NCBI GenBank assembly: GCA_031261985.1
Contig: JAISIR010000003.1
Location: 26,924 to 90,923, forward strand
Length of the DNA: 64,000 bases
Source: Clostridiales bacterium
Lineage (GTDB): Bacteria > Bacillota > Clostridia > Monoglobales > WRBX01
Reading direction: 5' to 3'
Under the pieces are notes generated by a model. The model did not search any database. It was not told the DNA's origin and was given only the letters and a program-made list of their open reading frames with translations. The position numbers were made by a program, and so were the translations under genes. Positions 1 through 55,764 of the stretch are shown one piece after another (position 1 is the first letter of the stretch; each line of letters starts with the position of its first letter).

Positions 1-183
1 ATTTGTCTTAAATGTAATCAACTTGTTTTATGTTTGATATCTAACTTTCAAACTTCTGAAATAATTCTGTTAAAAAACATGGTAGATATTACATACCATG
101 TAAAAAATAGGGTTTTTTTGAAATATTTCGTTAACATAACGCCTTTTTGTAACGCTTTTGTAACATTAATATTTAAAGACATG

Positions 184-3120: not shown

Positions 3121-3325
3121 ATTAAAATCACCACTTATTTTTTATATAAACTGCCATAATCATTATACCATACAATTCAACTAAAATAAAGAGATATTTT
3201 AAAATTTTACACAATTGTAAAAAATTTGTAATATTTTGCGACGAAAAAAACTTGCAAATAATAAACATCTGTGGTATATTTATCTATATGGAAGAATATG
3301 GAAATTTCCAAAGGAGGCTTCTCTC

Positions 3326-6934: not shown

Positions 6935-7049
6935 AATTCCCCAAAACTTTACACAAATTTAACATAAATCCCCTTGACTTTTGTTGTGATTCGTGATATA
7001 TTTCAGTTATTCCATAACGATTATATAATAAAACTAAGGGGGATATATT

Positions 7050-12655: not shown

Positions 12656-12906
12656 CTTAATTTCTCCCTTTAAAAGTTAAGGCACAGGCTTTGTTAAAAC
12701 CTAAACCAAAACCATATATATAAACACTAAACACCATTTAAAAAAACAAATAGTTTTTAGCAGTTGTAAAACATTTTATCACATATTAAAAAAAAAGTCA
12801 AGTGGTATTGACAAATTGTAATATTTGTGATACAATTGTAAAGCAACAAATTTTTTAAACAAACAAAACGTATAAAGCAATCTTATTTTTAGGGGGTTAA
12901 TTAGCT

Positions 12907-16920: not shown

Positions 16921-17147
16921 AATAATATGGAAAAAACAACATTAACAAAAAAACTTAACAGAAATTTAACAAAACGACAGTTTTACCCCTTGAAAAAGAT
17001 TTATATTTGTGTTATAATAGAAATGTAAGGAAAATAAGAAGGCTAGTCGGCATTAGTTAATCTGCTACGCCGCTAGCCCTTACTTGTATCCTTGACCCGC
17101 AAAAATGAATTTTTGCGGAATTTAATCACAAACAAGTAAAAAGAACG

Positions 17148-22518: not shown

Positions 22519-22699
22519 TCTCAAAAAAATTAAGGAACGAACTCAAGTTGCAATATAGTTGCCCATGGTTCCACTCCTTATAGTATAATTATACATAAAG
22601 CTACACAAAAAGTCAACAAAACCTAAAATAATGTAACAAAAATGTAATAAAAAAACGCCTGTTTTCACAAGCGTTTTTAAAAATGAACATTGAAGAGTA

Positions 22700-23344: not shown

Positions 23345-23520
23345 AATTCTCCTCCTTGATAAAATTATTACTCCTATATTTTAACAAATATGATTTTAAA
23401 TGTCAATATTAAAAAAGCTAAATTTTACATAAACTTAACAATAAAGGCGAATAACACGTTGACATTCCTTGATTTTTATGGTATAATAGGTTTGTTACAA
23501 TCTAAGGGGGAGCAATTTTT

Positions 23521-27761: not shown

Positions 27762-27890
27762 TTTTTCTCCCCCTTATGTAACTATTATAACACAAAAGTA
27801 CCGCAAACGCAATAGCAAATTCGCGTTTTATGTTAAATTTGTGTTAAGTTATTTTGCAAAACTGTCATTCTAACCTTTGCTTAGATAATT

Positions 27891-28571: not shown

Positions 28572-28774
28572 TTTAAAACTCCCCTTTTATTGATTTTGCA
28601 AGCATTATATCACATTTTCTTACTTATGTCAACATAAAAACGCCCGATTTTATGTTAAATTTGTGTTAAGTTATCTAGCTTCCAAAAGCATCCTTGGTTC
28701 AAATTCATAAACAAAAAACATTTTGCTAAAAAGCAAAATGTCCTTCACAACTATTCATTGTTCGCTATTTATGT

Positions 28775-31213: not shown

Positions 31214-31593
31214 TAGTATCATCCCCTTACTTATATTATAACAGATTTTCGCGTAAAAGTCAAGCAAAAAGATATGAATTATGTTAAATTTGTGTAAAGG
31301 TATTAAGGTAAAAAGTGCACCCCCGGTTCAAATCTGTTTTTAGGCTCTAAGTAACCCCCTAAACACTACAAATAAAAAAATGAAGAATGATAAGTGATGA
31401 ACGATAAATGTTGAATACAAAAAGTGCACTATAGCATGCCTTTCATTCATCATTTACAATTGATCATTTTTCATTGCCAAGCTTGCTTGGCACTTTTTGT
31501 TTGGTTTGGACAAAAAAGATACCCAAGAAGGTTTATAAGCAACTTTCAAAGTTTTATCAATTTTTTAATTCTTTTTTGTAGCTTGTTGGCAAT

Positions 31594-32329: not shown

Positions 32330-32496
32330 CACCCTTCCAAAATTATATTTAAATCGGTTTGTGAAGAAATTATAAATTTTCGTGTTTTATAATATAGCGT
32401 TCTGTTGACTTTTACATTATTATGTGCTAAAATAATAAAAAGATGTTGTCGTCATAATCGAATATTATTAAAAGTTTGATGAAGTGGAGGGCTATT

Positions 32497-33042
32497 GTGG
32501 CTAAAAGAGAGGCTATTAAAACAACACTTAATTCAATTGTGGAATATTGGGGCTCGAGGGTTGATGAATGTGATCTTAGTGTTGACTGGGCAGAAGCGGA
32601 CAGCCATTGTTGGAGGTGTGGGTGCGAAAAAAATTTAGAACGGTGTCATATAATCCCGCATTCATTACAGGGAAAGGATGAGCCTTCTAATTATGTGTTA
32701 CTATGCAAAAGATGTCATTTGGAAAATCCTAATGTCGCCGATAAGGAAATTATGTGGGATTGGCTAAAAGCATATAAAACATCTTTTTATGAAACTTTTT
32801 GGCTAATTCAAGGTTTAGAAGAATACAAACGCATATATGGAAAAAGCGTTGTTGAGGAACTCAAAAAGCTAGGAATTAAAGATAGAAATAAAGTTTTAAG
32901 CTCGTTCAAAGCTACCCATAATATGGCAAGCTTTCATTTCGGGCAACCATATTTCAACTCAGCAACTGTTGCAGGATTATTGAGGATGATGATAAAGGAA
33001 TTGGAAGCGGAAACGGAAACTATTGAGAAATGCAACGCATAA
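32497..33042 (+). CDS. Free-standing HNH endonuclease
   Basis: GTG start 6 nt after GGAGG. 'CWRCGCEKNLERCHIIPHSLQGKDEPSNYVLLCKRCH' is an HNH motif. Confidence 0.7.
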   Translation: MAKREAIKTTLNSIVEYWGSRVDECDLSVDWAEADSHCWRCGCEKNLERCHIIPHSLQGKDEPSNYVLLCKRCHLENPNVADKEIMWDWLKAYKTSFYETFWLIQGLEEYKRIYGKSVVEELKKLGIKDRNKVLSSFKATHNMASFHFGQPYFNSATVAGLLRMMIKELEAETETIEKCNA

Positions 33043-33097
33043 AATTCTCATAAATTAATTTGTTCTATTTATATCAGCTCGTTTATTTTTAAAAACA

Positions 33098-33910
33098 TTA
33101 TTGTTGAATAGCTTTAGTCAAGCCATGCATCCCAGCTTCAAAATCTTCTCTAAAATCAATATACTTTTTATTCTTTAATAAATGTGGGATTTCACAATCT
33201 TTTAGCAAAATAGGTATAACCTTGATTCTGTTTTCACCTATTTCACGCCAAAACATAGACTGCCATTCCGTTTTAACCCAGTTAGATTCAATAGAATTCG
33301 GAGATAGGATAACCAATATATAGTCGCTGGCATCAAGAGCTTTTGATATTTCATCGGGTATAGATTGCCCGCCACATATCTCACTATCTATCCAAGGGTC
33401 ATGCCCATCTTCTGCCAATTGAACAAATAAACTTTCTGCAAATGGCTTATCTTTTGTTGCGTGAGAGATGAAAATTTTCAAGCCTTTTTTATTGCCAAAC
33501 CTAGTTTTAACATGTCGCTCATACATTAAAGCTATAGTAAGATTAAGTTCCAATAATAAGTCTTCTTTTTGTTGCATTAATTCCTTTTCATCGCCCTCGC
33601 CAGACATAATTTTTTCGGTAATCCCCCAAATTTCATATTCTATAGATTTCATTCTATTTGAGCAAGCAGACATAGGAATAGTGTTTGTTATATTACCTTT
33701 TGGTACATAAGCAAATGTATTGCAATGCAATATATTTCCCCAATAGATAATCGCATATTGATTATGCAACATTTCACAATCTTCATCAATGCCATCTGTA
33801 CATAATTCACAAATGTCACATTCGCAAGCATCATCGTCAAAAATTCCAATTCTCCCTTTATACTCTCCTTTTATACATAAAACTGGACCATAGCTTAATT
33901 CAGAATGCAT
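33098..33910 (-). CDS. TIR-domain protein with a Cys/Asp-rich N-terminal domain
   Basis: C-terminal 'LKIFISHATKDKPFAESL...DPWIDSEICGGQSI...YILVILSPNSIESNWVKTEW' is TIR-like. The N-terminal ~130 aa contains 'DDDACECDICELCTDGIDEDCE'. Confidence 0.75.
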   Translation of the reverse strand: MHSELSYGPVLCIKGEYKGRIGIFDDDACECDICELCTDGIDEDCEMLHNQYAIIYWGNILHCNTFAYVPKGNITNTIPMSACSNRMKSIEYEIWGITEKIMSGEGDEKELMQQKEDLLLELNLTIALMYERHVKTRFGNKKGLKIFISHATKDKPFAESLFVQLAEDGHDPWIDSEICGGQSIPDEISKALDASDYILVILSPNSIESNWVKTEWQSMFWREIGENRIKVIPILLKDCEIPHLLKNKKYIDFREDFEAGMHGLTKAIQQ

Positions 33911-33948
33911 GTATTATCCTCTCTTTCGATGAGAATTATTTTAAAAAC

Positions 33949-34857
33949 TTAAACACATATTTTCGCACCTTTTTTTCTATTACATCTCCAACACAAACAT
34001 TGAAGGTTTTCCTCTACAGATAAACCACCTTTAGAAATTGGAATTATGTGGTCTATTTCTAGAAGTAGTGTGGGTTCATCTTTTATAGAAACATTACATA
34101 ACTTGCAAGCATAGTTATCTCTTTTTTTAATTTTTTCTCTTAATTGTGGAGTCATTATAACTCTTTGGTATTGAGCAGATTTTTTATATTTGATACTGTC
34201 GTCTAGCCAATGCATAAAACCCTCTAAATTATTGGGGTTGAGCTTTAAAGTGTAAGACAATCCACTATTGCCACCTGAACTTGTATAAGAGAAAACATAT
34301 TGCGGATAAATAACTGAAACTAAATCTAATTCAGTTAATCCTAACTTTTTATAAAGAGATTTTTTCAAAATTTTAATCAAAAATGGTAAATTGTTTTTAA
34401 TCTTATCAAATAAATTATTACGTTTTGTCCTAAGTAGTTCTCTCGATTCTTCATAAGAATTAAAATTATTCAGCATGTCGTTTGCATAATTACGATGCGT
34501 TTCATCTATAGGTATATTAAAATACTTACAAATATACTTATAGCCATTTAGCTGAGCATTACTAACAACAGAACGAGAACAATGATATATGTATTGTTTG
34601 TTTTCTCTACTAAAAAGCCCAGAATGTTTATAACCCCATCGGCTTTCATTTGAGATTTCTCCAACAAAAGTTTGCTTAGTTTGGCCTCCTAAAAGATTTA
34701 TGCTTAAAAAATCGGCATACTCATTCAGCTCGTTAAAATCGTTAGTTAAATCCTCTACACTTTTCTTTATGGAAGCAAATTCATCAGAATTAAAATAAAC
34801 ATTTCTATAAATGATAATACCTATCCAAACTATAAAAATTATTGCTAAAGGATTCAT
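33949..34857 (-). CDS. Membrane-anchored HNH nuclease
   Basis: N-terminal TM 'LAIIFIVWIGIIIY' and C-terminal 'CKLCNVS...LEIDHIIPISKGGLSVEENLQCLCWRCNRKKG'. Confidence 0.7.
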   Translation of the reverse strand: MNPLAIIFIVWIGIIIYRNVYFNSDEFASIKKSVEDLTNDFNELNEYADFLSINLLGGQTKQTFVGEISNESRWGYKHSGLFSRENKQYIYHCSRSVVSNAQLNGYKYICKYFNIPIDETHRNYANDMLNNFNSYEESRELLRTKRNNLFDKIKNNLPFLIKILKKSLYKKLGLTELDLVSVIYPQYVFSYTSSGGNSGLSYTLKLNPNNLEGFMHWLDDSIKYKKSAQYQRVIMTPQLREKIKKRDNYACKLCNVSIKDEPTLLLEIDHIIPISKGGLSVEENLQCLCWRCNRKKGAKICV

Positions 34858-34936
34858 GGTATTCCGCCTTTATGTTTTTGTATTTTACCGCTTAGAAATT
34901 ATAGTGAAATGAAAAATCTCAGGAGTTTTTTCATGC

Positions 34937-35521
34937 CTATTGTAATTTAAATCCATTTTGTTTGTCTGCTAATTTTGCGATTTCGGTTCTTTGAAGTTTT
35001 ATTTCTTTAAGAAATTTTTCTTCAAAAGTTTCAATAGTATGAAAATGAGCGTAATTCATTAAATTAATATGAAAATTTTGTTCTTTAATATCATCGTTGA
35101 TATCTTTATAATAAACAACTCCAGAAGCAGGTTCTTTCCTTGCGTTTCTTCTGATCTTTGTTGTACCAATAGGAACCTCATATGTTTGACCTATACCAAT
35201 TATACATTCCATGGTTTTTAATTCCTTAAGAATTCTAATTATATCGTTTTCCATGAGACTATTGATAAAGTTATCATCAAATACAATTTTTACATTTTTA
35301 GCTATTTTTCTTCCGTTATTTGTAAATTTTAACATGTAAAAAGCTCGATTCACAAAAACGACTTCTACGGTGATATAAGCCCGATTTTCTTCGTCAAATT
35401 GGCGCTTTATTTCTATAGTTTGTTCTTTAGTAGCTTTAGTGGATTTATAATTAAAAAAGCATATAAAAATTGTAGCTACTGTATAAATAAAAGTTATAAT
35501 AACATTAAGCCAATCTGCCAT
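34937..35521 (-). CDS. Single-pass membrane protein, first gene of the TIR operon
   Basis: Start at ATG 35521 after GGAAGAGGTGG. TM helix 'WLNVIITFIYTVATIFICFF'. The rest is unrecognised. Confidence 0.5.
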   Translation of the reverse strand: MADWLNVIITFIYTVATIFICFFNYKSTKATKEQTIEIKRQFDEENRAYITVEVVFVNRAFYMLKFTNNGRKIAKNVKIVFDDNFINSLMENDIIRILKELKTMECIIGIGQTYEVPIGTTKIRRNARKEPASGVVYYKDINDDIKEQNFHINLMNYAHFHTIETFEEKFLKEIKLQRTEIAKLADKQNGFKLQ

Positions 35522-35526
35522 ATCTC

Positions 35527-35570
35527 CACCTCTTCCATAATTATACATTATTCGCACTTTGATGTCAAGC
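35527..35570 (-). promoter_or_regulatory. Conserved island promoter+RBS module, copy 2 (more diverged)
   Basis: Minus strand reads TTGACATCAAAGTGCGAATAATGTATAATTATGGAAGAGGTGG. Confidence 0.7.
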
Positions 35571-35834
35571 CTCAGCTAAAATCCGCATTCAGCCTATAAC
35601 CAACTCTTAAACGCTATTTTTAAACTGCATCTTAAAAAACAAAAAAACCTGCGAGGCAGGCGTTAGAAATATATTTTTAATGGATAATGAAAAGTGGGGA
35701 AATATTAAAAACGTCGTTTAATAATTCGAAACAGCGTATTATCGCAGTTTTTGCTAAATAATCTTCCCTGTTTTCTTCTAAGGATGGCTTTATCTCACTT
35801 GGTAAAAGATATGAGAAATTTATACTTTCCCCAA

Positions 35835-36836
35835 CTAATATGGATTTTCAAGATCTAATCCATAATGATTTCCAATGCATCTATAGATACCTTCAACGGC
35901 ATTGCAAATATCTGATATATAGCTTGATATAATTTCATCTGTTATATCGATATTAATTTCAGCAGCGTGGACTATCGCATTTCTAATAGTAATTATATCA
36001 TCAATACTATCTAATAATGTATCGGAACGGGCAGGAATGGGTTTTGAAAATACAGCGTTTATATCAAGATTTTCGTTCACCATTTTATAATTGTCTATAA
36101 TAGATTTAGGTCTTTGAAAACTTAACCATTCGCTCAAAACCCATTCTACTTTTTCATTATCTTGCGAAAATGTTTCTATGTGTTGTGGAAGAATTTTTAT
36201 TTTATTTATTACTTTTTTAAATGCTTTTTTCCTGTCATCCGCAAATTTCAAAAGTACAACGAAAGTGGATTTAAGATATTTTTCCCAAGCACCAACAATA
36301 TAAGGTATAAGTAGATTGTTAAATATGGTATTTGCATTAAATTCCATAAGCCAAGGAATATTTGTATTATTACCTTCTATTCTAGTCTGATATTCGAGCA
36401 AAGCCACCTTTTTAATATTATTATCGAAAATCCACTTTTGATAGTACAACCCAACTTCTATTTCAGATTTCTCTGGTAATTCTACTCCGAGCTTAAGGTC
36501 GTCCCAATCATCTTCTTCAAATTCACCACCAAAAAAATTGCTTAAAGCTATTACGGTTTCGTGTTGATGCTTATGCTCCCAATAACTACGCCCAATACGC
36601 GTTCGCGTACAAACCGATATAACTCCATTTTCCTCGTAAAGAGTCAATTCAAGTCCAACAAGTGATTGGAATTCTTTTGCTCCAACCCACACATAACTCC
36701 CTTTGCGTTGCGGAATTTCTTCCTTAGGCACGATTTCAAAGCCATCGTATATCTCATAGTCAAGCCATTTAATAACATCTTTTACTCTTTCAATGTTTGT
36801 TCCAATAGGAAAGGTATTAGTGGTTTCATAACTCAT
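35835..36836 (-). CDS. HEPN-motif protein (ApeA/Abi-like), island cassette C
   Basis: Start moved to ATG 36836; the ORF-track N-terminus crosses the promoter module and spacer repeats. C-terminal 'IITIRNAIVHAAE' contains an Rx4H motif. Confidence 0.55.
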   Translation of the reverse strand: MSYETTNTFPIGTNIERVKDVIKWLDYEIYDGFEIVPKEEIPQRKGSYVWVGAKEFQSLVGLELTLYEENGVISVCTRTRIGRSYWEHKHQHETVIALSNFFGGEFEEDDWDDLKLGVELPEKSEIEVGLYYQKWIFDNNIKKVALLEYQTRIEGNNTNIPWLMEFNANTIFNNLLIPYIVGAWEKYLKSTFVVLLKFADDRKKAFKKVINKIKILPQHIETFSQDNEKVEWVLSEWLSFQRPKSIIDNYKMVNENLDINAVFSKPIPARSDTLLDSIDDIITIRNAIVHAAEINIDITDEIISSYISDICNAVEGIYRCIGNHYGLDLENPY

Positions 36837-36841
36837 GCTTT

Positions 36842-36887
36842 TCACCTCTTTCATAATTATATATAATTCGTCATGCGAAGTCAATAC
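36842..36887 (-). promoter_or_regulatory. Conserved island promoter+RBS module, copy 3
   Basis: Minus strand reads TTGACTTCGCATGACGAATTATATATAATTATGAAAGAGGTGA. Confidence 0.75.
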
Positions 36888-37006
36888 AAAAAAATGCGCC
36901 CCCAGTTTAAATCTGTTTTTTGGGGGTGGGCAACCCCCTAAAGCGCCCTTGCAAAAATTTGCACTTAGAAATGCGAAAAACGCCCATAAATACAGGCGTT
37001 TTTGGC

Positions 37007-37058
37007 TGGGTATCTTTTTTGTCCAAACAACTTGTCCTGTTTGGACAAAAAAGATACC
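37007..37058. terminator. Perfect 21-bp-stem palindrome between cassettes (bidirectional terminator/insulator candidate)
   Basis: GGGTATCTTTTTTGTCCAAAC, 10 nt, GTTTGGACAAAAAAGATACCC. Half copies at 31511-31531 and 32175-32197. Confidence 0.7.
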
Positions 37059-37065
37059 CGAGAGA

Positions 37066-38616
37066 TTAAGACTCTTCGTCATCGTCAACTTCATCGAAAA
37101 TGATATTAGAATTCCCTATTAAATAATCGACGCCTTCTAATCTTTCTTTCCATTTTTGTTTATTTTCTTCGCATAATTCATCATATAACACATCGACAGC
37201 ATCAGATAAATACTCACATCCATTTTTATTATCAAATATTTCGCTTATATAAGTCCCAATATTCGCACGGTCAAAATCTAATTCTTGAAAAACATTTAAA
37301 AATTCATGTTCAGGGTGTTTTTGCCCATATTTTAACAGCCAAAAGATAAGTTCTTTTTTCGATTGTTTTATTTGTAAAAATATATTATATAGTTTTTTGG
37401 ATTTTTCGCCTCTAAATACAAGACAAGCTGTTGATTCGCTTTCTAATTCGTATGCGTAAATATTAAGTTCTGAACACAAACTATACACTAGATTATAATA
37501 CGAAAAAGCTATTTTGCCCAAAGCAGTACCAAAAGCTTTTTTAATATTCTCAGAATATTCTTCTTTATTCCCACCACCTATTTTTTCTAATAATTTAAGT
37601 TCTTTGTTTATATCATCCTGTGTGCTAAATCTGGAATATCGTGCGTCATTATAGAATTGCAGCAATACGTCAAACAGGATGTTTTCATTATCCTTAAAAT
37701 CATTTTCTGCTATTTTATTTATATAATCACGAAGTCCTGTGTGATTGTGACTCATAAGCAGTCTTCTTATTCGATCTTGCTCGCTTCTTAAATCTTTGTT
37801 TTTATAATACATTAGCTCAATTATTATTTTTTGTAATCTTTCTACTCCTTGAGCTGCGAAATACAAAGCCAAAAATGGATACTCGCATAGGTATTCTTTG
37901 TTTTGAAACAAACTTTTATCATCGGGATGGAAAAATTTAATTTTACTTATCTCTTCTATTGATTTCCAAATCATTGCTCCAGAAATTTGCAACTCCTTTC
38001 TTAAAGCAAAATTCATTTCCGATAGATCTCTATCTAAATCAACTTCTATTTTTTCATCAAAATGTTCATTTTCTTCATGAGTGTAACTACCAATACTAAT
38101 TGCATAACTTAATTTTTTTGTTGCTTCTTCAAAAACAAAATTTTCTTCTTCACCGTCGCATTCATTGTGGAAAGCTGTTATTAAGTTTTCTTTTACAGAA
38201 CAAAGAGGTATCAAATTCTTCCAAAACTGTTTCCTTTCATCTTTAGACAACATATCAACCCTTGCCATTCCTTTGTAAGCAACTAGTTTTTTATTCAAAA
38301 TGTCGTCAATTACTTTCGCTGCTTTTTCTGAAATATTTTGCAACACCCAGCAAAAAGGCCAGCCTTTTAATCCGCCCCAAGATATCGGTTGAAAATCAAT
38401 GGTGCATAAATCGTCTTTAATGAGAAATGGCGATAAGTCTCCAAATACACGCCTATCAAGAATATCACCTGCTCTTATAACTATTTCATCTGAACAATTT
38501 TTCAATTCTTCAACACTCATAATTACTTCAAAAACTTCTTCGCCATACCAACCAGTGTTGAATTTTCCACTATCAAAAATAAAAGCAATATTAAGTTGTT
38601 CATTTATATTTCCCAT
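37066..38616 (-). CDS. Large Abi-like protein with a candidate Rx4H HEPN motif, island cassette D
   Basis: ATG at 38616 after GGAAGAGGTG. Central 'RIRRLLMSHNHTG' contains RLLMSH. Otherwise unrecognised. Confidence 0.45.
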   Translation of the reverse strand: MGNINEQLNIAFIFDSGKFNTGWYGEEVFEVIMSVEELKNCSDEIVIRAGDILDRRVFGDLSPFLIKDDLCTIDFQPISWGGLKGWPFCWVLQNISEKAAKVIDDILNKKLVAYKGMARVDMLSKDERKQFWKNLIPLCSVKENLITAFHNECDGEEENFVFEEATKKLSYAISIGSYTHEENEHFDEKIEVDLDRDLSEMNFALRKELQISGAMIWKSIEEISKIKFFHPDDKSLFQNKEYLCEYPFLALYFAAQGVERLQKIIIELMYYKNKDLRSEQDRIRRLLMSHNHTGLRDYINKIAENDFKDNENILFDVLLQFYNDARYSRFSTQDDINKELKLLEKIGGGNKEEYSENIKKAFGTALGKIAFSYYNLVYSLCSELNIYAYELESESTACLVFRGEKSKKLYNIFLQIKQSKKELIFWLLKYGQKHPEHEFLNVFQELDFDRANIGTYISEIFDNKNGCEYLSDAVDVLYDELCEENKQKWKERLEGVDYLIGNSNIIFDEVDDDEES

Positions 38617-38622
38617 TGATTT

Positions 38623-38668
38623 TCACCTCTTCCATAATTATATATAATTCGTCATACAAAGTCAATAC
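38623..38668 (-). promoter_or_regulatory. Conserved island promoter+RBS module, copy 4
   Basis: Minus strand reads TTGACTTTGTATGACGAATTATATATAATTATGGAAGAGGTGA. Confidence 0.75.
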
Positions 38669-39872
38669 AAATTATCGTGATTTTGGTATAATACACCGCA
38701 TTTTATCCCAAGCTTTCATTATGAGTAAATACACTAACGAACAAAAAGAAAAAGCGTTGGAACTTTATGCTTCTGGGGTAAGTGTTGCGAGCGTTGTTAA
38801 GGAATGCAAAATCCCGCGAAGCACGGTGTATGGGTGGATTTCAGCCGAAAATCTAAACGGCAATGACGAGCTTGCGTTCACTCCGAAAAACTTTCGCATG
38901 CTTAAAACAAAGGCGGACAAGTTGGAGCAGATTGTCGCTGTGCTTAAATCGTCTGATTGCACCCTTAACGCTCCATTACACGAAAAACTTAAAGTTATCA
39001 AAAAGCTGTATGGGCAATATAGTGTGCATATTTTATGCGAGGCGTTCTCAGTTAGCCGTGGGACTTTCTATAATTATCTACTACGCAACAAAAACGAAAA
39101 CACCACTTATGCAAAGCGGCGTGAGGTTTTTAGCAAACTCGTTAAAGATGTTCACGATGAGTTTAATCAGATTTTGGGTGCAAAGAAAATCACGGCGGTA
39201 CTAAATGAGCTAGGGCACAGGACGACTGAGAAATATGTGCGAAGCATTATGCAGGATATGGGGCTTGCGAGCATTCGGCAGGGGGCAAAAGCATTTTACC
39301 ACAAGGAACAATCAAAGGCAAAAAATCATCTAAATCAAAATTTCAAGGTGGACACCCCTAACGAGGTTTGGGTTAGCGATGTTAGTTTCTTCCATTTGCA
39401 CAAGCACACATATTACATTTGCGTGATTATCGACCTTTTCGCTCGAAAAGTTGTGAGTCATAAAGTGTCGCACAAAAACAGCACACAACTTACAAAATCA
39501 ACTTTTAAGCAAGCGTATTTAACACGAAAGCCCAAAGATGGTTTGATTTTCCATACCGATCAAGGCTCAAATTATCGCTCATTCACTTTTATGAGCTATC
39601 TAAAAGAGTTAGGCGTTACGCAATCGTTTTCGAGGGCTCATATTCCTTACGATAATTCTGTTGCGGAGGCGTTCTTTTCGTCTTTGAAGCAAGAAGATCT
39701 TTATCGCCATAAGTTCAAAACCGAAAAAGATTTCCGCAAAGCCGTCGATGAATATATTGTTTTTTATAACACCAAACGCCCACATACTTATAACAAGAAT
39801 AAAACGCCTGTTAAGGTGGAGGATGAGTTTTATAGCAATAATGAGAAGAATTCACAATAACAATATAGATGT
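38669..39872 (+). mobile_element. IS3-family insertion sequence (ends approximate)
   Basis: Contains the transposase ORF and fills exactly the gap between the copy-4 module and the stop of gene 39873-41279. Terminal inverted repeats are only weakly visible. Confidence 0.55.
38721..39860 (+). CDS. IS3-family transposase (HTH + DDE/rve), single uninterrupted ORF
   Basis: HTH region 'IPRSTVYGWI'. rve core 'VWVSDVSFF...YICVIIDLFARKVV...HTDQGSNYRS...YDNSVAEAFFSSLKQE'. Start set at ATG 38721. Confidence 0.8.
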   Translation: MSKYTNEQKEKALELYASGVSVASVVKECKIPRSTVYGWISAENLNGNDELAFTPKNFRMLKTKADKLEQIVAVLKSSDCTLNAPLHEKLKVIKKLYGQYSVHILCEAFSVSRGTFYNYLLRNKNENTTYAKRREVFSKLVKDVHDEFNQILGAKKITAVLNELGHRTTEKYVRSIMQDMGLASIRQGAKAFYHKEQSKAKNHLNQNFKVDTPNEVWVSDVSFFHLHKHTYYICVIIDLFARKVVSHKVSHKNSTQLTKSTFKQAYLTRKPKDGLIFHTDQGSNYRSFTFMSYLKELGVTQSFSRAHIPYDNSVAEAFFSSLKQEDLYRHKFKTEKDFRKAVDEYIVFYNTKRPHTYNKNKTPVKVEDEFYSNNEKNSQ

Positions 39873-42184: not shown

Positions 42185-42261
42185 GCACCTTTAGCTCAGT
42201 TGGTTAGAGCAACCGGCTCATAACCGGTTTGTCCGGGGTTCAAGTCCCTGAAGGTGCACCA
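42185..42261 (+). tRNA. tRNA with CAU anticodon (Met, or Ile2 if lysidine-modified)
   Basis: GCACCTTTAGCTCAGTTGGTTAGAGCAACCGGCTCATAACCGGTTTGTCCGGGGTTCAAGTCCCTGAAGGTGCACCA. The Ile-like body leaves the identity ambiguous. Confidence 0.85.
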
Positions 42262-42421
42262 AAACTTTGCATGCAGCAAAGAGTTAAAAGATAAGAGAGA
42301 AAAGTTAAAAGTTAAGGAAGTTTTGCTAACGCAAACAATTAAAGGCAAAGTTTTGTACTTTTCATTTTTCTCTTTTAACTTTTCACGCTTCACTAAAAAG
42401 CTAACTTCACAAATACCTTTT
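42262..42421 (+). repeat. Structured tRNA trailer repeat, copy 2
   Basis: AAAACTTTGCATGCAGCAAAGAGTTAAAAGATAAGAGAGAAAAGT...GGCAAAGTTTTGTACTTTT, matching 6764-6908. Confidence 0.85.
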
Positions 42422-42508: not shown

Positions 42509-42559
42509 TGTAACAATTCTGTAATATTTCTGTAACAATTTTGTAAAAAACTCTTGACA
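42509..42559 (+). promoter_or_regulatory. Four 11-bp-phased TGTAAY repeats abutting the cysS -35 box
   Basis: TGTAAC 42509, TGTAAT 42520, TGTAAC 42531, TGTAAA 42542, then TTGACA 42554-42559. Confidence 0.6.
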
Positions 42560-42812
42560 TTTTAACCTCTTTATGATATAGTATGCAATAATTAACTAGC
42601 GTTTAGCTATTTTTAGGATAAATTTTTCTTTTTGAAACAAACGAGTAAGGCAAGGCTGGCGCCTGCCGCAATGAGTTTGTGCGCAAAAAGGGGGATTTAA
42701 CTAAAAAGAGCAAATGATAGTTATTTATTGCATACTAAAGTATGCTAAATTCGATATTACAACCACTTCTATCCGCTTTAATTTTTAATATTTACAAGGG
42801 GGAGCAATGCAA

Positions 42813-44369
42813 ATGAAAATTTACAACACGTTAAAAAAGCAAAAAGAAGATTTCATCCCGCTAGAACCTGGTAAAGTTAAGATGTACGCTTGTGGTATTA
42901 CTGTGTATGACCAATGCCATATTGGCCACGCCCGACAAGCCATTGCTTACGATATGATTACAAAATATCTCCGATTTAAAGGTTTAGAAGTTAAATATGT
43001 ACGTAATTACACAGATGTTGATGATAAAATAATCGCCCGAGCAAACGACTTAGGCGTTAATGCACTAGATTATTCTGCCGATAGAATTATAGATGCAGAA
43101 GCCGATTTAAAAGCGCTAGATATTGCAGATGCCACCGTTAAACCTCAGGCATCGCAATACATACCACAAATTCAAAAATTCGTCGAAGGGTTAATCAACA
43201 AAGGTAATGCGTATGCCACCGATAATGGCGATGTATACTTTTCGGTAGATAGTTTCCCTCAATATGGCGAGCTATCTGGCATAAAATCGGACGAACTAAT
43301 AGAAGGAACGCGCAAAGATATAGAGCCAGGCAAAAGAAGCCCTAAAGACTTCGCACTTTGGAAGTCTGCCAAGCCAGGTGAGATTTCGTGGGAATCGCCT
43401 TGGGGAGAAGGCCGCCCAGGTTGGCATATAGAGTGTTCTGCCATGGCAATAGATAATTTAGGCGAAACCATTGATATCCATGGCGGCGGTCAAGATTTAG
43501 TCTTCCCGCATCACGAGAACGAAAAAGCTCAAAGCGAGGCATTAACTGGTAAGACATTTGTTAAAACCTGGACTCATAGCGGGCTTATTACCGTTGACGG
43601 TCAAAAAATGGGTAAATCGCTTGGTAACTCGGTTACAATTAAGCAAGCACTTAATGCCTACGATAAAGAAGTAATCCGCTACGCCATGCTTTCTAAGCAT
43701 TATTCGTCACCGGTAGATTATAACGACAAAGAGTTTTCTCTTGCCGAAAAGCATTTGTATTATTTTTATAATTCGTTAAAATCGGTTAAGGATTATCTTG
43801 CCAAAGCCGACGCAACTAATGCACCTACCACTAAAGAAATGATGGACATAAACAAAAAAGTCTCTCAAATCCGCGAGAATTTTATAAACGCAATGGACGA
43901 TGACTTTAATTCAGCATCGGCTTTATCACAACTATTTGCTACTTTTAAAAACGTTAATAGTGTTTTAAATTCAAAGGGAGTATCCGAAGAATATAAAGCC
44001 GAGTTCTTTAAACAATTTAACTCGACCGTTTTAGAGTTATACAAAGTGTTTGGTGTTTTGCAATATCAGCCCGAGCAATTTATCGACCAAACGCGCGAGA
44101 AATACATGAAGGGGTTAGACATAACCGTCCCCGAGATTCAGCAATCTATAGCTGAAAGAGCAACGGCAAAAGAGAATAAAGATTACGCAAAATCGGACGA
44201 AATTAGAAACAACCTAGATGCCCGAGGTATTATTTTAAAAGATACCCGAGCAGGTACCACTTGGGATATAAAAGAGCTTTATATAAGAGACTTAGCCGCG
44301 TTAGAAAAAAATGCCGAGCAAGCAAAAGAAGTAAAGCCTATTAGTGGTACAATTAAATTTAACAGATAA
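42813..44369 (+). CDS. cysS: Cysteinyl-tRNA synthetase
   Basis: 'CHIGHAR' (HIGH) and 'KMGKSLGN' (KMSKS). Start chosen at the second ATG (42813, 8 nt from GGGGGAG). The ATG at 42807 is also possible. Confidence 0.9.
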   Translation: MKIYNTLKKQKEDFIPLEPGKVKMYACGITVYDQCHIGHARQAIAYDMITKYLRFKGLEVKYVRNYTDVDDKIIARANDLGVNALDYSADRIIDAEADLKALDIADATVKPQASQYIPQIQKFVEGLINKGNAYATDNGDVYFSVDSFPQYGELSGIKSDELIEGTRKDIEPGKRSPKDFALWKSAKPGEISWESPWGEGRPGWHIECSAMAIDNLGETIDIHGGGQDLVFPHHENEKAQSEALTGKTFVKTWTHSGLITVDGQKMGKSLGNSVTIKQALNAYDKEVIRYAMLSKHYSSPVDYNDKEFSLAEKHLYYFYNSLKSVKDYLAKADATNAPTTKEMMDINKKVSQIRENFINAMDDDFNSASALSQLFATFKNVNSVLNSKGVSEEYKAEFFKQFNSTVLELYKVFGVLQYQPEQFIDQTREKYMKGLDITVPEIQQSIAERATAKENKDYAKSDEIRNNLDARGIILKDTRAGTTWDIKELYIRDLAALEKNAEQAKEVKPISGTIKFNR

Positions 44370-48375: not shown

Positions 48376-48650
48376 ACAAATTGCCAGCTTGTCGGTAATT
48401 TGCACAAAAGGGCTCCCACAAAACGCGGGTTCCATTTTGTGGGATAAGAGGAGCAACGCGGAACAAAAGCGACGTTTTTGCGAATTTTGCAAAAACTAGC
48501 CGCGTGAAGCAGTTGCATTGCGCGAAAGCGCAAAGGGCTCCCGCAAAAGCCGATTTTGCTTTTGTGGGATAAGAGGAGCAACGCGGAGCATAAGCGACGT
48601 TTTTGCGCTTTTGGCAAAAACTAGCGGAGCGTAGCAGTTGCGACGAAAGG
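48376..48650 (+). repeat. H1 hairpin plus a two-unit family U modular repeat in the cysE leader
   Basis: 48528-48646 closely matches the sequence 5' of tRNA-Cys (41666-41784, minus strand). ORF-track minus-strand ORFs here are artefacts. Confidence 0.85.
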
Positions 48651-50314: not shown

Positions 50315-50344
50315 TAAAATGTAGTTACAGTGTAGTTGCAATGT

Positions 50345-50375
50345 AAAAAACCACCTTGATTTGGTGGTTTTTTTA
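50345..50375 (+). terminator. Intrinsic terminator after cysK
   Basis: AAAAAACCACC / GGTGGTTTTTT. Confidence 0.8.
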
Positions 50376-50421
50376 ACGTTTAGTGACAAAAATATTACCA
50401 AAATGTAGAAAAATTTAAAAA

Positions 50422-50567
50422 TGTAACCAAAATGTTAAGTTATTGTAAAGAAAATGTAACAAAAGGCGAGTTGCCAAAATACCTAGGTTTACCCTTGCAA
50501 AAAGCCCTGTAATTTCTAATAATTTAACATTCTCTTAACACTAATTTAACACAAATTTAACTTGCAA
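50422..50567 (+). promoter_or_regulatory. Two blocks of 11-bp-phased (T/G)TAAC repeats ending at a promoter
   Basis: TGTAAC 50422, TGTTAA 50433, TGTAAA 50444, TGTAAC 50455. Then TTAAC at 50524, 50535, 50546 and 50557, then TTGCAA (50562), 17 nt, TATAAT. Confidence 0.6.
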
Positions 50568-50710
50568 TTTTCGACATTTGATTGTATAATAGAACTATAG
50601 CATTAGTATTATGCGTTCATTTTGCATACCTATATTAATGTAAGTAAAAAAACAAGCAAAAAACACAGACAACAACTCAAATAATAGATTTTTCTTAGGG
50701 GGAAATTTTT

Positions 50711-51499
50711 ATGTCAGATGAAAAGACAGAACTTACGTTCCAAGATAGCGGCGCAATTCAGATGGCTACAAGCCAAGCAATTATGACGGCAAACGCTGCA
50801 CGGATGAGCAAAAACGCAAATAAAAAAGACGAGAATTTACGTCGTCTGCCAAAAGCTTTAGCCGATCAGCCCGAGTCAGTTAAAAACCTTTACCGCGAGC
50901 TTACTAAAAAAGATAAAAAAACTTTTGCCGACCTTGTTAAAGGCGAACATATCCCACTAACTAAAGAGGGAATGACACATGTTTTAGAAAAATTTGTTGC
51001 TACTAAATCACCCGCTCAGCTTGGTAATAACTCTACAGATGAAGAAAGACTTAAAAACGATATGCTTTACCAAATGCTAGAGAGTTTAGCGCGCGCAGTT
51101 GGCGTTCCAGAAGAAGACTTACAAAAGATTCGTCGCGGCGAGGACCCTCACCCCGAAGAGCTTAAAGACACCGAGCAACAACTAAGCGCAAATAAAGAGC
51201 AAGATAAAATTGAAGTTAAGCACGCAGAAGCTAAAATTCGTGATGATTATAACAATAGCGATATATTAAAAGAAATTAGCCAGGACGATACCTTAAAGAA
51301 GCATACTAAACGTATAGAAGATGCTATGGATAAAGCTCCTGAAAAAGTAGGCAAAGAGATTAACGCTCTAGAGCGCACTTTCGATAACAGAAAATATTCT
51401 AACGAGAAGCGCAACGATATCCGTGAAGCGTTAATGCAAAAAAGCCCTAAAGTACGCGAGGCTTATGCACTACATCCGCCTGCTGGGCTATCAAAATAA
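50711..51499 (+). CDS. Hypothetical charged protein, first gene of the conjugation-module transcription unit
   Basis: GGGGGA RBS. Lys/Glu-rich with no motif recognised. Confidence 0.5.
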   Translation: MSDEKTELTFQDSGAIQMATSQAIMTANAARMSKNANKKDENLRRLPKALADQPESVKNLYRELTKKDKKTFADLVKGEHIPLTKEGMTHVLEKFVATKSPAQLGNNSTDEERLKNDMLYQMLESLARAVGVPEEDLQKIRRGEDPHPEELKDTEQQLSANKEQDKIEVKHAEAKIRDDYNNSDILKEISQDDTLKKHTKRIEDAMDKAPEKVGKEINALERTFDNRKYSNEKRNDIREALMQKSPKVREAYALHPPAGLSK

Positions 51500-51532
51500 T
51501 TTAACAATAAAAAACAAGGAGTGAGATAAATC

Positions 51533-53524: not shown

Positions 53525-53602
53525 ATATTAAAAAAAGTTAAAAATTTTTTGGGGGAGCAAATCAATAAAGAATCATAAACAAAAAAATTCGAGGTGCTCT
53601 AT

Positions 53603-55324: not shown

Positions 55325-55364
55325 GGGCAAGCAATAAGCCAGAAGCCAGAAATATTGTAAAATT

Positions 55365-55400
55365 CCCGTCATTGCGGGCTACGACCCGCAATCTACACGC
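55365..55400 (+). repeat. Terminal hairpin motif, left of the GIY-YIG gene
   Basis: CCCGTCATTGCGGGCTACGACCCGCAATCTACACGC. The inverted partner is at 55833-55865. Confidence 0.8.
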
Positions 55401-55434
55401 AAATAAGGAATAGCAAAATAAAGAAGGGTAATAG

Positions 55435-55749: not shown

Positions 55750-55764
55750 AACAAGGTAGAGAGT

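What the first reader, a model, noticed from the sequence alone, without database searches (positions are those of the whole stretch)
42509..42559. Helically phased (11-bp) TGTAAC/TTTAAC repeats stacked against promoter -35 boxes
Upstream of cysS, TGTAAC/TGTAAT/TGTAAC/TGTAAA start at 42509, 42520, 42531 and 42542, exactly 11 bp apart. The series runs straight into TTGACA at 42554.

The same pattern recurs elsewhere.
- TGTAAC/TGTTAA/TGTAAA/TGTAAC at 50422, 50433, 50444 and 50455.
- TTAAC at 50524, 50535, 50546 and 50557, ending at the -35 TTGCAA at 50562.
- TGTAAA/TGTAAT at 3216 and 3227, upstream of spoIIA.
- TGTAAC/TGTAAT at 22632 and 22643, in inverted orientation upstream of the SLH-gene promoter.
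- TGTAAC at 148 and 159.
- TTAAC at 16955 and 16966, upstream of the HD-GYP gene.

An 11-bp period places every core on one face of the helix. That suggests a multimerising DNA-binding protein (a global regulator or nucleoid protein) or a built-in curved UP-like element. I do not recognise the core (T/G)TAAC as a known Firmicute regulator box.
Basis: seen in the sequence. Interest (0 to 1): 0.55.

Follow-up and report, generated by a model that had tools for sequence, protein, structure and literature searches.

The report
Response-regulator binding-site arrays upstream of promoters
The 11-bp-spaced TGTAAC/TTAACA repeats are real and far from chance, and they match the classic docking sites of OmpR/PhoB-type response regulators (WalR, ArcA, PhoP) placed in helical register with promoters; the only unusual feature is how many there are in this uncultured Clostridia genome.

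Summary
TGTWAH-N5-TGTWAH occurs 17 times in the window against about 0.9 expected. All 17 lie in the 16% of the window that is non-coding, at 11-12 loci.

Only the N5 spacer and its +11 and +22 harmonics are enriched, and only for direct repeats. Most arrays sit at fixed helical phases upstream of near-consensus sigma-A promoters, with hexamers starting 5, 15 or 24-25 bp (+11n) before the -35 box.

The same module, with the same bimodal 14-15 / 24-25 bp geometry, recurs in unrelated metagenomic contigs, in viral contigs and in Lactococcus phage phiQ1.

The core is not unknown. It equals the footprinted WalR/VicR consensus and the E. coli ArcA direct-repeat grammar, and it resembles the B. subtilis PhoP and cyanobacterial RpaB boxes. 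Independently, the exact 17-mer lies next to OmpR-family regulator genes in 8-9 of 182 motif-seeded loci, where about 0.3 would be expected.

Best explanation: tandem operator sites for a winged-helix response regulator that contacts RNA polymerase, probably as an activator. Intrinsic curvature is modest and inconsistent. The regulator itself cannot be identified, because none is encoded in the window.

The kind of element is known. The site density, about 40 times that of C. difficile, is the unusual part.

The parts
42509..42547 (+). Four-hexamer array TGTAAC-aattc-TGTAAT-atttc-TGTAAC-aattt-TGTAAA. Each hexamer is followed by A. It spans about -81 to -42 of the cysS promoter.
   Evidence: the position-7 A preference comes from PMC4168254
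42554..42582 (+). Predicted sigma-A promoter of the cysS operon: -35 TTGACA (42554-42559), 17-bp spacer, TGn-extended -10 TATAGT (42577-42582)
   Evidence: consensus match only; the transcription start is not mapped
42813..44369 (+). cysS (cysteine-tRNA ligase), first gene of a cysS-aminotransferase-cysteine desulfurase-like operon
   Evidence: Pfam; 100% match to P0001; gene calls
50422..50460 (+). Four-hexamer array TGTAAC/TGTTAA/TGTAAA/TGTAAC. It is the distal part of the composite control region in front of the conjugative module.
50524..50562 (+). Four-hexamer array TTAACA/TTAACA/TTAACA/TTAACT reading toward the promoter. The last unit overlaps the -35 box by one base.
50562..50590 (+). 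Predicted promoter TTGCAA-N17-TATAAT driving 50711 onward (two unknown ORFs, then the VirD4/TraG coupling protein)
50318..50347 (+). Degenerate 11-bp repeats TGTAGT/TGTAGT/TGTAAA at the 3' end of the cysK-like gene; a possible weak relative of the arrays
3216..3232 (+). Pair TGTAAA-aaatt-TGTAAT, 36 and 25 bp before the TTGCAA (3252)-N17-TATATT (3275) promoter of spoIIAA-spoIIAB-sigF
148..164 (+). Pair TGTAAC-gcttt-TGTAAC between the rimM stop codon and its terminator; no convincing promoter is nearby
6948..6964 (+). Pair TTTACA-caaat-TTAACA, proximal hexamer 15 bp before TTGACT (6974)-N17-TATATT; drives the unknown gene at 7050-7751
16942..16971 (+). Three TTAACA hexamers (16942, 16955, 16966), proximal one 24 bp before TTGAAA (16990)-N17-TATAAT; drives the HD-domain gene at 17148
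22632..22648 (-). Pair ATTACA-ttttt-GTTACA on the minus strand, 21 bp before TTGACT (22616-22611)-N17-TATAAT; drives the 1256-aa SLH surface protein gene
23424..23440 (+). Pair TTTACA-taaac-TTAACA placed symmetrically between divergent promoters: 23459(+) for the VWA/DnaJ-domain operon (hexamers at -24/-35) and 23406(-) for a lipoprotein gene (hexamers at -23/-34)
27831..27847 (-). Pair TTAACA-caaat-TTAACA, 24 bp before TTGCGT (27812-27807)-N17-TATAAT; drives gene 27761-27333
28653..28669 (-). Pair TTAACA-caaat-TTAACA, 26 bp before TTGACA (28632-28627)-N17-TATAAT; drives gene 28571-27891
31282..31298 (-). Pair TTTACA-caaat-TTAACA, 24 bp before TTGACT (31263-31258)-N17-TATAAT; drives the operon 31267-28775 (unknown protein, DUF2157, GDYXXLXY)
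12817..12842 (-). Weak, imperfect relative (TTTACA ... ATTACA, 20 bp apart, one-mismatch hexamer between them), 21 bp before the rny promoter TTGACT-N17-TAAAAT
   Evidence: marginal

Best explanation
The repeats are operator arrays for a winged-helix response regulator of the OmpR/PhoB family.

Each 11-bp unit has a 6-bp conserved core, TGTWAH (read on the other strand, DTWACA), and about 5 A/T-rich variable bases. Each unit would bind one DNA-binding domain. Successive units lie on one face of the helix, so protomers bind head-to-tail as dimers (2 units) or tetramers (4 units).

The arrays keep discrete helical phases relative to the -35 box of sigma-A promoters. Hexamers start 5, 14-16 or 24-26 bp (+11n) before the -35 hexamer, so the 17-bp site is centred near -52 or -62. 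From there the bound regulator can touch RNA polymerase through alpha-CTD, sigma region 4 or the beta-flap.

I infer that it mainly recruits polymerase, that is, it activates transcription, and so puts a subset of promoters under one phosphorylation signal. That subset includes cysS, spoIIA, a large SLH surface protein, several orphan genes and the first operon of a conjugative element.

Shown: the sequence grammar, its statistics, the promoter geometry, its recurrence elsewhere, and its identity with known operator consensus sequences.

Inferred: that a protein of this family binds here, which regulator it is (a WalR orthologue is the leading single candidate, at perhaps 0.3), and the sign of regulation.
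For: (1) Grammar. Only direct repeats with an N5 spacer are enriched: 17 against 0.9 expected, with harmonics at N16 and N27. Arrays have 2-4 units. This is the '6 conserved + 5 variable, 11-nt direct repeat unit' that defines PHO-box-type sites, which are bound as tandem dimers, tetramers or hexamers contacting sigma region 4, the beta-flap and alpha-CTD (PMC2275107; PMC11825685).

(2) Identity with known operators.
- It is an exact match to the footprinted WalR/VicR consensus TGTWAH-N5-TGTWAH, including the favourable A at position 7 in all four cysS units.
- It also matches ArcA sites: TGTTA/TGTAA core, 11 bp centre-to-centre, 2-5 repeats.

(3) Independent association with regulator genes.
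- Loci were fetched only because they contain the 17- or 20-mer. Six of them have it 58-120 bp upstream of an OmpR-family regulator gene.
- One has a four-unit array in front of a TetR-kinase-regulator operon. One has the site between a regulator gene and a MacAB/TolC efflux operon. One has it 273 bp upstream.
- About 0.3 such cases would be expected by chance.

(4) Promoter geometry.
- In the window the modal positions are -24/-35 relative to the start of the -35 box.
- In 58 metagenomic seeds, 40% have a strong promoter in range, against 8% at control positions. Distances are bimodal at 14-15 and 24-25, and the control is flat.
- In viral arrays, promoters occur in one direction only, at 5, 15 or 25-27 bp. 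phiQ1 promoters show 5, 16 and 16 bp.

(5) Specificity.
- All sites are non-coding.
- Many consensus promoters (tRNAs, rplU, trmD) lack them.
- The nearest relatives, though more AT-rich, show no enrichment.

(6) Precedent. RpaB is a global OmpR-family regulon with a (G/T)TTACA core, in which sites centred -66 to -45 activate.
Against: - No response-regulator gene is present in the window (Pfam; tblastn). The rest of the genome could not be retrieved, so no cognate protein is identified.
- The core promoters are already near-consensus, which is atypical for activator-dependent promoters.
- The density is about 40 times that reported for C. difficile (29 intergenic hits in 4.3 Mb) and about 10 times that of related metagenomic contigs once the seed is excluded. 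That is unusually high for one regulator.
- The genes served are functionally heterogeneous and are not a cell-wall or phosphate regulon.
- The arrays occur in both orientations relative to promoters.
- Promoters and transcription starts are predicted, not mapped.
Confidence: 0.6

Rival explanations
1. RNA-polymerase-intrinsic upstream element. The phased repeats are a lineage-specific UP-like or curved-DNA module. It is contacted directly by alpha-CTD or wraps the polymerase, and it boosts already strong promoters without any dedicated regulator.
For: - The arrays sit directly upstream of near-consensus promoters at fixed helical phase.
- Spacers are A/T-rich, with AATT/AAATTT tracts.
- Predicted curvature is higher than in matched intergenic controls: median 25.5 against 19.5 degrees, p = 2e-4.
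- The module occurs in phage promoters, including promoters in the region I take to be the early region of Lactococcus phage phiQ1. Such promoters must work with host polymerase alone.
Against: - The conserved part is a specific TGT..A / ACA core, not an A-tract.
- Curvature is inconsistent. The 50422-50460 array sits at about the 50th percentile, and repeat-free promoters reach similar values.
- The commonest site position (-71 to -54) lies mostly upstream of the classical UP zone of -60 to -40 (established knowledge, not tested here).
- The tRNA and ribosomal-protein promoters in the window lack the repeats.
- The same sequence is found beside response-regulator genes far more often than chance allows.
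Confidence: 0.15
2. The sites bind a different kind of tandem-binding protein. Candidates are a regulator encoded by a mobile element or phage (ribbon-helix-helix ParR-like, Rep/iteron-binding or MerR-like BldC-type) or a lineage-specific nucleoid or silencing protein that targets accessory genes.
For: - Many of the genes served are orphan or accessory genes, and one array set heads a conjugative module.
- Long TGTAAC-N5 arrays of 5-8 units in opposed pairs occur in viral contigs and look like iterons or centromeres.
- The density is high for a single classical regulator.
Against: - The arrays are short (2-4 units) and dispersed.
- They are phased to promoters, not clustered at one origin or centromere.
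- They also serve cysS, spoIIA and an SLH protein gene.
- The exact identity with the WalR and ArcA consensus sequences and the association with OmpR-family genes are unexplained by this reading.
- Silencers do not normally show a strict N5 direct-repeat grammar.
Confidence: 0.2
3. There is no function. The repeats are neutral slippage or duplication products in AT-rich intergenic DNA, or a chance pattern.
For: TRF finds other period-11 and period-7 repeats in the window's intergenic DNA. Perfect 11-bp microsatellites containing TGTAAT exist in giant-virus contigs.
Against: - 17 hits against 0.9 expected, and 0 of 100 shuffles reach 17.
- Cores are conserved while spacers vary.
- The same 17-20-mer recurs at unrelated loci and in unrelated organisms with the same promoter geometry.
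- AT-richer relatives show no enrichment.
Confidence: 0.02

Closest known systems
WalR/YycF/VicR boxes of Firmicutes (TGTWAH-N5-TGTWAH)
   Same: - All 17 sites are exact formal matches.
- They are direct repeats with an 11-bp period, and in-phase spacing matters.
- The favourable A at position 7 is present in the cysS array.
- Sites occur on either strand relative to the gene.
- WalR is conserved across Firmicutes, so a Clostridia MAG should encode it (PMC4168254, PMC9210968).
   Different: - WalR regulons are small (29 exact intergenic matches in all of C. difficile) and centred on cell-wall hydrolases.
- Here there are 11-12 loci in 64 kb, serving cysS, spoIIA, orphan cytoplasmic proteins and a conjugative module. 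Only an SLH protein and a lipoprotein are envelope-related.
- Four-unit arrays are not typical of WalR.
E. coli ArcA direct-repeat sites
   Same: - TGTTA/TGTAA core with 11 bp centre-to-centre spacing.
- A minimal pair plus 1-3 extra repeats at 11 or 22 bp.
- A/T-rich positions after the core.
- A global regulon (PMC4173790).
- The window consensus aTGTTAAatttgTGTWAA is nearly the ArcA logo.
   Different: - ArcA is proteobacterial and acts mainly as a repressor, with sites overlapping the -10 box and transcription start.
- Here the sites lie upstream of the -35 box at activator-like positions, in a Firmicute.
B. subtilis PhoP boxes and PHO boxes in general
   Same: - TT(A/T/C)ACA hexamers on the coding strand, repeated 2-4 times with about 5-bp spacers and abutting or replacing the -35 box. 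The consensus is from memory; the 6+5 structure and one-helix-face logic are cited in PMC2275107.
- Nine window sites match TTHACA-N5-TTHACA.
   Different: - None of the genes served is a phosphate-starvation gene.
- The (G/A)TTACA units of the cysS, spoIIA and SLH arrays fall outside the PhoP consensus.
- The promoters here keep good -35 boxes.
Cyanobacterial RpaB HLR1 motif
   Same: - (G/T)TTACA core in direct repeats.
- More than 150 target promoters.
- Upstream sites centred -66 to -45 activate, and sites over the transcription start repress (PMC6525291).
- It is a precedent for a global OmpR-family regulon with two discrete site positions.
   Different: HLR1 has 8-nt repeats separated by 2 nt, a 10-bp period. 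Here a 10-bp period is absent (N4 = 0). The phylum is also different.
UP elements and phased A-tract curved DNA upstream of Gram-positive promoters
   Same: Both are A/T-rich, helically phased and upstream of the -35 box, and both could stimulate strong promoters.
   Different: - UP elements have no conserved TGT/ACA core and no direct-repeat grammar.
- They lie at -40 to -60.
- They are strongest at rRNA, tRNA and r-protein promoters, which lack the repeats here.

Membership tests
OmpR/PhoB-family response-regulator operator (generic) | Direct (not inverted) repeats of a conserved core of about 6 bp plus about 5 variable bp, giving an 11-bp unit on one helix face | tested here: met
   N5 = 17 against 0.9 expected, harmonics at N16 and N27, no peak for convergent or divergent pairs; definition from PMC2275107
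OmpR/PhoB-family response-regulator operator (generic) | Two or more tandem units (dimer, tetramer or hexamer sites) | tested here: met
   Pairs at 8 loci, a triple at 16942-16971, and quadruples at 42509, 50422 and 50524; PMC11825685
OmpR/PhoB-family response-regulator operator (generic) | Placed in promoter regions at positions that allow contact with RNA polymerase | tested here: met
   Discrete phases of 5, 14-16 and 24-26 bp before the -35 box in the window, metagenomes and phages. Promoters are predicted, not mapped.
OmpR/PhoB-family response-regulator operator (generic) | The same sequence is used as an operator next to genes of such regulators (autoregulation or adjacent targets) | tested here: met
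   8-9 of 182 motif-seeded loci against about 0.3 expected
OmpR/PhoB-family response-regulator operator (generic) | A cognate regulator in this organism binds the sites | not testable with these tools
   No regulator gene lies in the window. The remainder of the MAG could not be retrieved.
WalR/YycF/VicR box | Sequence TGTWAH-N5-TGTWAH | tested here: met
   17 exact matches; consensus from PMC4168254 and PMC9210968
WalR/YycF/VicR box | Adenine at position 7 after each repeat in strong sites | tested here: met
   TGTAACA, TGTAATA, TGTAACA and TGTAAAA at 42509-42548; PMC4168254
WalR/YycF/VicR box | Targets are cell-wall metabolism and envelope genes | tested here: not met
   Only the SLH protein (18627-22397) and a lipoprotein (22700-23344) are envelope-related. 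The other targets are cysS, spoIIA, an HD-domain gene, a VWA/DnaJ operon, orphan genes and a conjugative module.
WalR/YycF/VicR box | Small regulon (tens of sites per genome) | tested here: not met
   17 matches in 64 kb against 29 intergenic matches in the 4.3-Mb C. difficile genome
ArcA direct-repeat site | TGTTA-type core, 11 bp centre-to-centre, 2-5 repeats | tested here: met
   PMC4173790
ArcA direct-repeat site | Sites overlap the -10 box or transcription start and repress; the regulator is the proteobacterial ArcA | tested here: not met
   The sites lie upstream of the -35 box, and the organism is a Clostridia MAG.
B. subtilis PhoP box | TT(A/T/C)ACA repeats with spacers of about 5 bp (consensus from memory) | tested here: inconclusive
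   9 matches against 0.2 expected, but the cysS, spoIIA and SLH arrays use (G/A)TTACA, which falls outside it.
B. subtilis PhoP box | Controls phosphate-starvation genes | tested here: not met
   No pst, pho or tua genes lie downstream of any site.
RpaB HLR1 | (G/T)TTACA(T/A)(T/A) repeats separated by 2 nt (10-bp period) | tested here: not met
   The core matches, but the 10-bp period is absent (N4 = 0); PMC6525291
UP element / intrinsically curved promoter DNA | A-tract-based, no conserved core, -40 to -60, strongest at stable-RNA promoters, high intrinsic curvature | tested here: not met
   - The core is a conserved TGT/ACA sequence.
- The modal site spans -71 to -54.
- The repeats are absent from the tRNA and rplU promoters.
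- Curvature is modest and inconsistent (parameters from memory).

The most novel reading that the evidence does not exclude
In this uncultured Clostridia lineage, a WalR/ArcA-type response regulator has grown into a global activator that is phased to RNA polymerase. It would serve roughly 40% of the promoter-bearing intergenic regions. Its targets would include housekeeping cysS, the spoIIA sporulation operon, surface proteins, many orphan accessory genes and the first operon of a conjugative type IV secretion element.

The same 'array plus consensus promoter' module is used by phages of Firmicutes (for example Lactococcus phage phiQ1), in what appears to be their early region. That would plug phage transcription into a conserved, growth-reporting host regulator.
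Probability: 0.15. Interest if true: 0.7.

Novelty: new member of a known kind. Interest (0 to 1): 0.4.

Why it matters
As a kind of element this is textbook: operator arrays of a two-component response regulator. The sequence by itself is therefore not a discovery.

It matters in three modest ways.
- It gives a ready-made regulon map and a testable promoter grammar (phases 5, 15 and 25 bp before the -35 box) for an uncultured Clostridia lineage with no close relatives.
- The site density implies an unusually large regulon that links cysteine-tRNA charging, entry into sporulation, surface proteins and a conjugative element to one signal.
- The same module in phage promoters of cultured Lactobacillales offers an experimentally tractable way to ask whether phages exploit WalR-type host regulators. 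I found no description of this in the searched literature.

Tried and rejected
(1) Retrieving more of the genome.
- Exact-protein look-ups for CysS (as read from the ORF), the 929-aa protein and RimM all failed.
- The database copy of CysS (P0001) led only to a 4.7-kb Logan contig.

It still served as a negative control and, unexpectedly, revealed the link to regulator genes.

(3) Orthologous conservation could not be tested. The nearest CysS relatives are only 58-62% identical, and their loci (L118, L119) have unrelated upstream regions and no motif enrichment.

(4) The downstream genes are neither paralogues nor a coherent functional class.

(5) No Rfam family, including T-box, matches the cysS leader.

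(6) BLAST of the cysS array and of the near-identical viral array L233 against GenBank phages gave nothing useful.

(7) Curvature alone was rejected as insufficient.

(8) Other boxes were considered from memory and rejected on sequence or symmetry:
- Spo0A 0A box (TGTCGAA), TnrA/GlnR (TGTNA-N7-TNACA, inverted), CcpA cre, CodY and CtsR;
- LytTR regulators (9-bp repeats, 21-bp period) and SaeR (GTTAA-N6-GTTAA, a partial match on one strand only);
- the ECF sigma-X -35 box TGTAAC (no partner -10 box);
- alternative -35 boxes of stacked promoters (no -10 box 17 bp downstream of the upstream hexamers).

(9) Whether TGTAAY and TTWACA units share one orientation or are opposite could not be settled, because TGTAACA is nearly palindromic. 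The geometry is the same to within 1 bp either way.
Full report
OBSERVATION.
- Upstream of cysS the sequence reads TGTAAC-aattc-TGTAAT-atttc-TGTAAC-aattt-TGTAAA (42509-42547).
- It is followed by TTGACA (42554), a 17-bp spacer and a TGn-extended -10 box TATAGT (42577).
- The 50422 and 50524 arrays and the pairs at 3216, 22632, 148 and 16955 are also as described.
- The downstream gene is cysS (Pfam).

Five further sites of the same kind were missed: 6948, 23424, 27831, 28653 and 31282. There is also a third hexamer at 16942. Several of these share a much longer consensus, aacTTWACAcaaatTTAACAtaa.

STATISTICS.
- The pattern TGTWAH-N5-TGTWAH has 17 matches against 0.87 +/- 0.94 in dinucleotide shuffles, with a maximum of 4. 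My own Markov shuffles give 0.96.
- The spacer spectrum is unambiguous: N5 = 17, N16 = 6, N27 = 5, and every other spacer from 0 to 29 gives 0-3. Convergent and divergent arrangements show no peak.
- In non-coding DNA, self-matches of any 5-mer at distance 11 number 77 against 27 +/- 7. TGTAA, TTAAC and TAACA are the specific contributors.
- All 17 matches lie in the 16% of the window that is non-coding.
- One-mismatch matches are near chance once the exact sites and their opposite-strand shadows are removed.

SOURCE AND RELATIVES.
- The window comes from an uncultured 'Clostridiales bacterium' MAG. There is a 100% CysS match (P0001) on a 106,855-bp contig, also seen in a Logan assembly of SRR14710920.
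- The next-best CysS is only 62% identical, so the lineage is isolated.
- Two such relatives are even more AT-rich (25-28% GC). They have 0 and 1 matches in 21 kb each, as their shuffles predict.
- 116 unrelated genome loci that were fetched because they contain one 17-mer mostly contain nothing beyond that seed.
- In C. difficile the same pattern has only 29 intergenic matches in the whole genome (PMC9210968).
- The density here, 11-12 loci in 64 kb, is therefore a property of this genome and not of AT-rich Clostridia in general.

GEOMETRY. Most arrays precede a near-consensus sigma-A promoter (TTGACx-N17-TATAAT).
- Measured from the start of the proximal hexamer to the start of the -35 hexamer, the distances are:
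  - 24 bp at 16966, 23435, 27836 and 31287;
  - 26 bp at 28658, and 21 bp for the SLH gene;
  - 15 bp at 6959, and 5/16/27/38 bp for the 50524 array;
  - 12/23/34/45 bp for cysS, and 25/36 bp for spoIIA.
- With the TSS assumed about 7 nt after the -10 box, the commonest 17-bp site spans about -71 to -54 (centre about -62). The nearer class is centred about -52.
- The 23424 site lies symmetrically between two divergent promoters, at -24/-35 for one and -23/-34 for the other.
- Many equally good promoters have no repeats. These include promoters upstream of the tRNA-Lys, tRNA-Met, tRNA-Gly/Cys, rplU and trmD genes. The element therefore marks a subset and is not part of general promoter architecture.

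RECURRENCE ELSEWHERE. A metagenome scan with the 20-mer TTWACACAAATTTAACATAA returned 66 loci. About 14 come from three sibling JGI samples (Ga0123353/4/7), with a few more from Ga0209737, Ga0209628 and JGI20163.
- Of 58 distinct seeds, 40% have a strong promoter 8-45 bp downstream, against 8% at random control positions.
- The distances are bimodal, 14-15 bp (7 cases) and 24-25 bp (9 cases), while the control is flat. The search pattern did not impose this geometry.
- Unseeded neighbouring hexamers extend the arrays to 3-4 units (L128, L132, L137, L154).
- In L156 a TGTAAY array abuts a TTWACA pair, as at 50422-50562 in the window.
- These contigs share almost no genes with the window.
- Once the seed is excluded they carry only about 1.3 extra sites per 64 kb. 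The module is widespread, but the window's density is exceptional.

A viral scan for four TGTAAY units at 11 bp gave at least 120 contigs, with well under one expected (my rough estimate for 20 specified bases).
- Many are perfect microsatellites or long iteron-like arrays.
- Forty arrays have conserved cores and variable spacers. Nine of these have a strong promoter downstream, at 5, 15 or 25-27 bp. Only two have one in the opposite direction.
- One array (L233) is almost identical to the cysS array.
- Matches in GenBank phages concentrate in phages of Lactobacillales.
- Lactococcus phage phiQ1 has three promoters, in what looks like its early region, with TGTAAC-N5-TGTAAH 5 or 16 bp before TTGACx-N17-TATAAT.

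WHAT IT IS. The core is not unknown.
- TGTWAH-N5-TGTWAH is the footprinted consensus of WalR/YycF/VicR. An A at position 7 and in-phase spacing improve binding (PMC4168254). All four cysS units have that A.
- E. coli ArcA sites are direct repeats with a TGTTA/TGTAA core 11 bp apart, usually with 1-3 additional repeats at 11 or 22 bp (PMC4173790). The window consensus is nearly the ArcA logo.
- PHO boxes are 11-nt direct-repeat units with 6 conserved and 5 variable positions. They are bound on one helix face by tandem dimers, tetramers or hexamers that contact sigma region 4, the beta-flap and alpha-CTD (PMC2275107, PMC11825685).
- RpaB uses a (G/T)TTACA core, controls more than 150 promoters, and activates from sites centred -66 to -45 (PMC6525291).

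An independent line came from the loci fetched only for containing the motif.
- In six of them, the exact 17-mer lies 58-120 bp upstream of an OmpR-family regulator gene. Five are Bacteroidota, nearest the PhoB/YycF/MtrA clade. One is a Lachnospiraceae, PmrA/RppA-like.
- A Clostridiales MAG has a four-unit array in front of a TetR-kinase-regulator operon.
- Another contig has the site between a regulator gene and a MacAB/TolC efflux operon.
- By chance about 0.3 such cases would be expected.

This shows that regulators of this family use this very sequence as an operator in several phyla.

MECHANISM (inferred).
- Each 11-bp unit binds one winged-helix domain.
- Two or four protomers bind head-to-tail on one face of the DNA.
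- The array is held at integral helical turns from the -35 box, so the proximal protomer faces RNA polymerase.
- Upstream positions centred about -52 or -62 resemble the activating class of RpaB and class-I activators. I therefore favour recruitment, that is activation (about 0.6, given that a protein binds).
- Near-consensus core promoters are an argument against strict activator dependence. Modulation or anti-repression remains possible.
- Which regulator binds is unknown. None is encoded in the window (Pfam calls). A WalR orthologue is the leading single candidate, because its specificity is conserved across Firmicutes and because phages of Lactobacillales carry the module. The gene set and the density do not look like a WalR regulon, so I do not file the sites as WalR boxes.

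RIVALS.
- Intrinsic curvature or a UP-like element.
  - A wedge-model calculation (parameters from memory) gives a median of 25.5 degrees against 19.5 for matched controls. The 50422 array is at the 50th percentile, and repeat-free promoters reach similar values.
  - Together with the conserved core, the mostly upstream position and the absence from stable-RNA promoters, this makes curvature at most a contributing property.
- A non-OmpR tandem binder (mobile-element regulator, iteron or centromere protein, silencer). The sequence alone does not exclude this. It leaves the consensus identity and the association with regulator genes unexplained.
- Chance or slippage is excluded by the statistics.

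VERDICT. The novelty is limited to an unusually dense regulon in an isolated uncultured lineage and to a possible, so far undescribed, use of the same module by phage promoters.

Noticed in passing
window 6787-6900 and 42282-42394: tRNA-Lys (6688-6763) and tRNA-Met (42185-42261) are each followed by a long imperfect hairpin built from heptad repeats (TAAAAGT x4 / TTTCACT x4; AGTTAAA x5 / ACTTTTC x5). After that come a terminator and then a repeat array plus promoter. The tRNA region also resembles metagenomic locus L154 8795-8876.
   Followed up: no
window 48407-48641: A 125-bp tandem repeat (1.9 copies, 84% identical) in the region between the LRR-protein gene and the serine-acetyltransferase-like gene. 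It overlaps a doubtful 123-aa ORF on the minus strand.
   Followed up: no
window 42583-42812 and 42813-44369: The cysS leader is about 215 nt long and matches no Rfam family, even at E <= 1, although T-boxes are usual for Firmicute cysS. The CysS protein is 518-520 aa, with a C-terminal extension compared with relatives of 480-490 aa.
   Followed up: partly
window 7050-7751, 27333-27761, 27891-28571, 50711-53524; L124, L137: Many proteins downstream of the arrays end in Pro/Lys-rich tails. These include several orphan proteins in the window. Two unrelated metagenomic proteins (L124, L137) end in nearly the same peptide, GSKEI(H/N)PPR. This may be a C-terminal sorting or secretion tag; a type IV secretion module is nearby.
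   Followed up: no
window 32476-39860: A defence-like island: two HNH endonuclease genes, a TIR-domain protein, a RiboL-PSP HEPN protein with a 516-aa partner, and then an IS-type DDE transposase.
   Followed up: no
window 50711-64000: A conjugative element-like block. It has two large unknown ORFs, a VirD4/TraG coupling protein (53594-55324), a GIY-YIG nuclease, small membrane proteins with a shared GMR/K-xVIAGAIV motif, and a 929-aa protein. It is headed by the most elaborate repeat region in the window (50318-50562).
   Followed up: partly
window 184-696, 3236-4903, 7844-8884, 13318-14826: The gene order is unusual. rimM and trmD are separated by about 7 kb that contains spoIIAA-spoIIAB-sigF. 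A dnaA gene lies near rny and is followed by a GT87-like membrane protein instead of dnaN.
   Followed up: no
window 8994-9623: A collagen-like (GXX repeat) protein gene with nested 9/18/27/36/54-bp tandem repeats, reminiscent of BclA-type exosporium proteins.
   Followed up: no
L200 1429-1738 and L246 8054-8331 (viral contigs): Two opposed arrays of 5 and 7-8 TGTAAC-N5 units about 250 bp apart. They look like replication iterons or a partition centromere, not promoter operators.
   Followed up: no
L312 (Lactococcus phage phiQ1) near 36361 and 46050; L311 604-650: Three promoters, apparently in the early region of a cultured lactococcal phage, carry TGTAAC-N5-TGTAAH 5 or 16 bp before a consensus -35/-10 pair. 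No annotation or paper describing this was found.
   Followed up: partly
L012, L018, L035, L045, L083 (Bacteroidota genomes): A conserved regulator of the PhoB/YycF/MtrA clade, below all NCBIfam equivalog cut-offs, carries the exact TGTTAAATTTGTGTWAA sequence 58-120 bp upstream of its own gene. This suggests an uncharacterised autoregulated two-component system in Flavobacteriales and Cytophagales.
   Followed up: partly
L174, L133, L158 (metagenomic contigs): In another lineage, TTAACA-taaac-TTAACA recurs four times in 4.2 kb. Each copy is followed at a fixed distance by a conserved ...cttggtgaat...TTACTTATCTTTAC..TAATAAA block, a different repeated promoter-like module.
   Followed up: no
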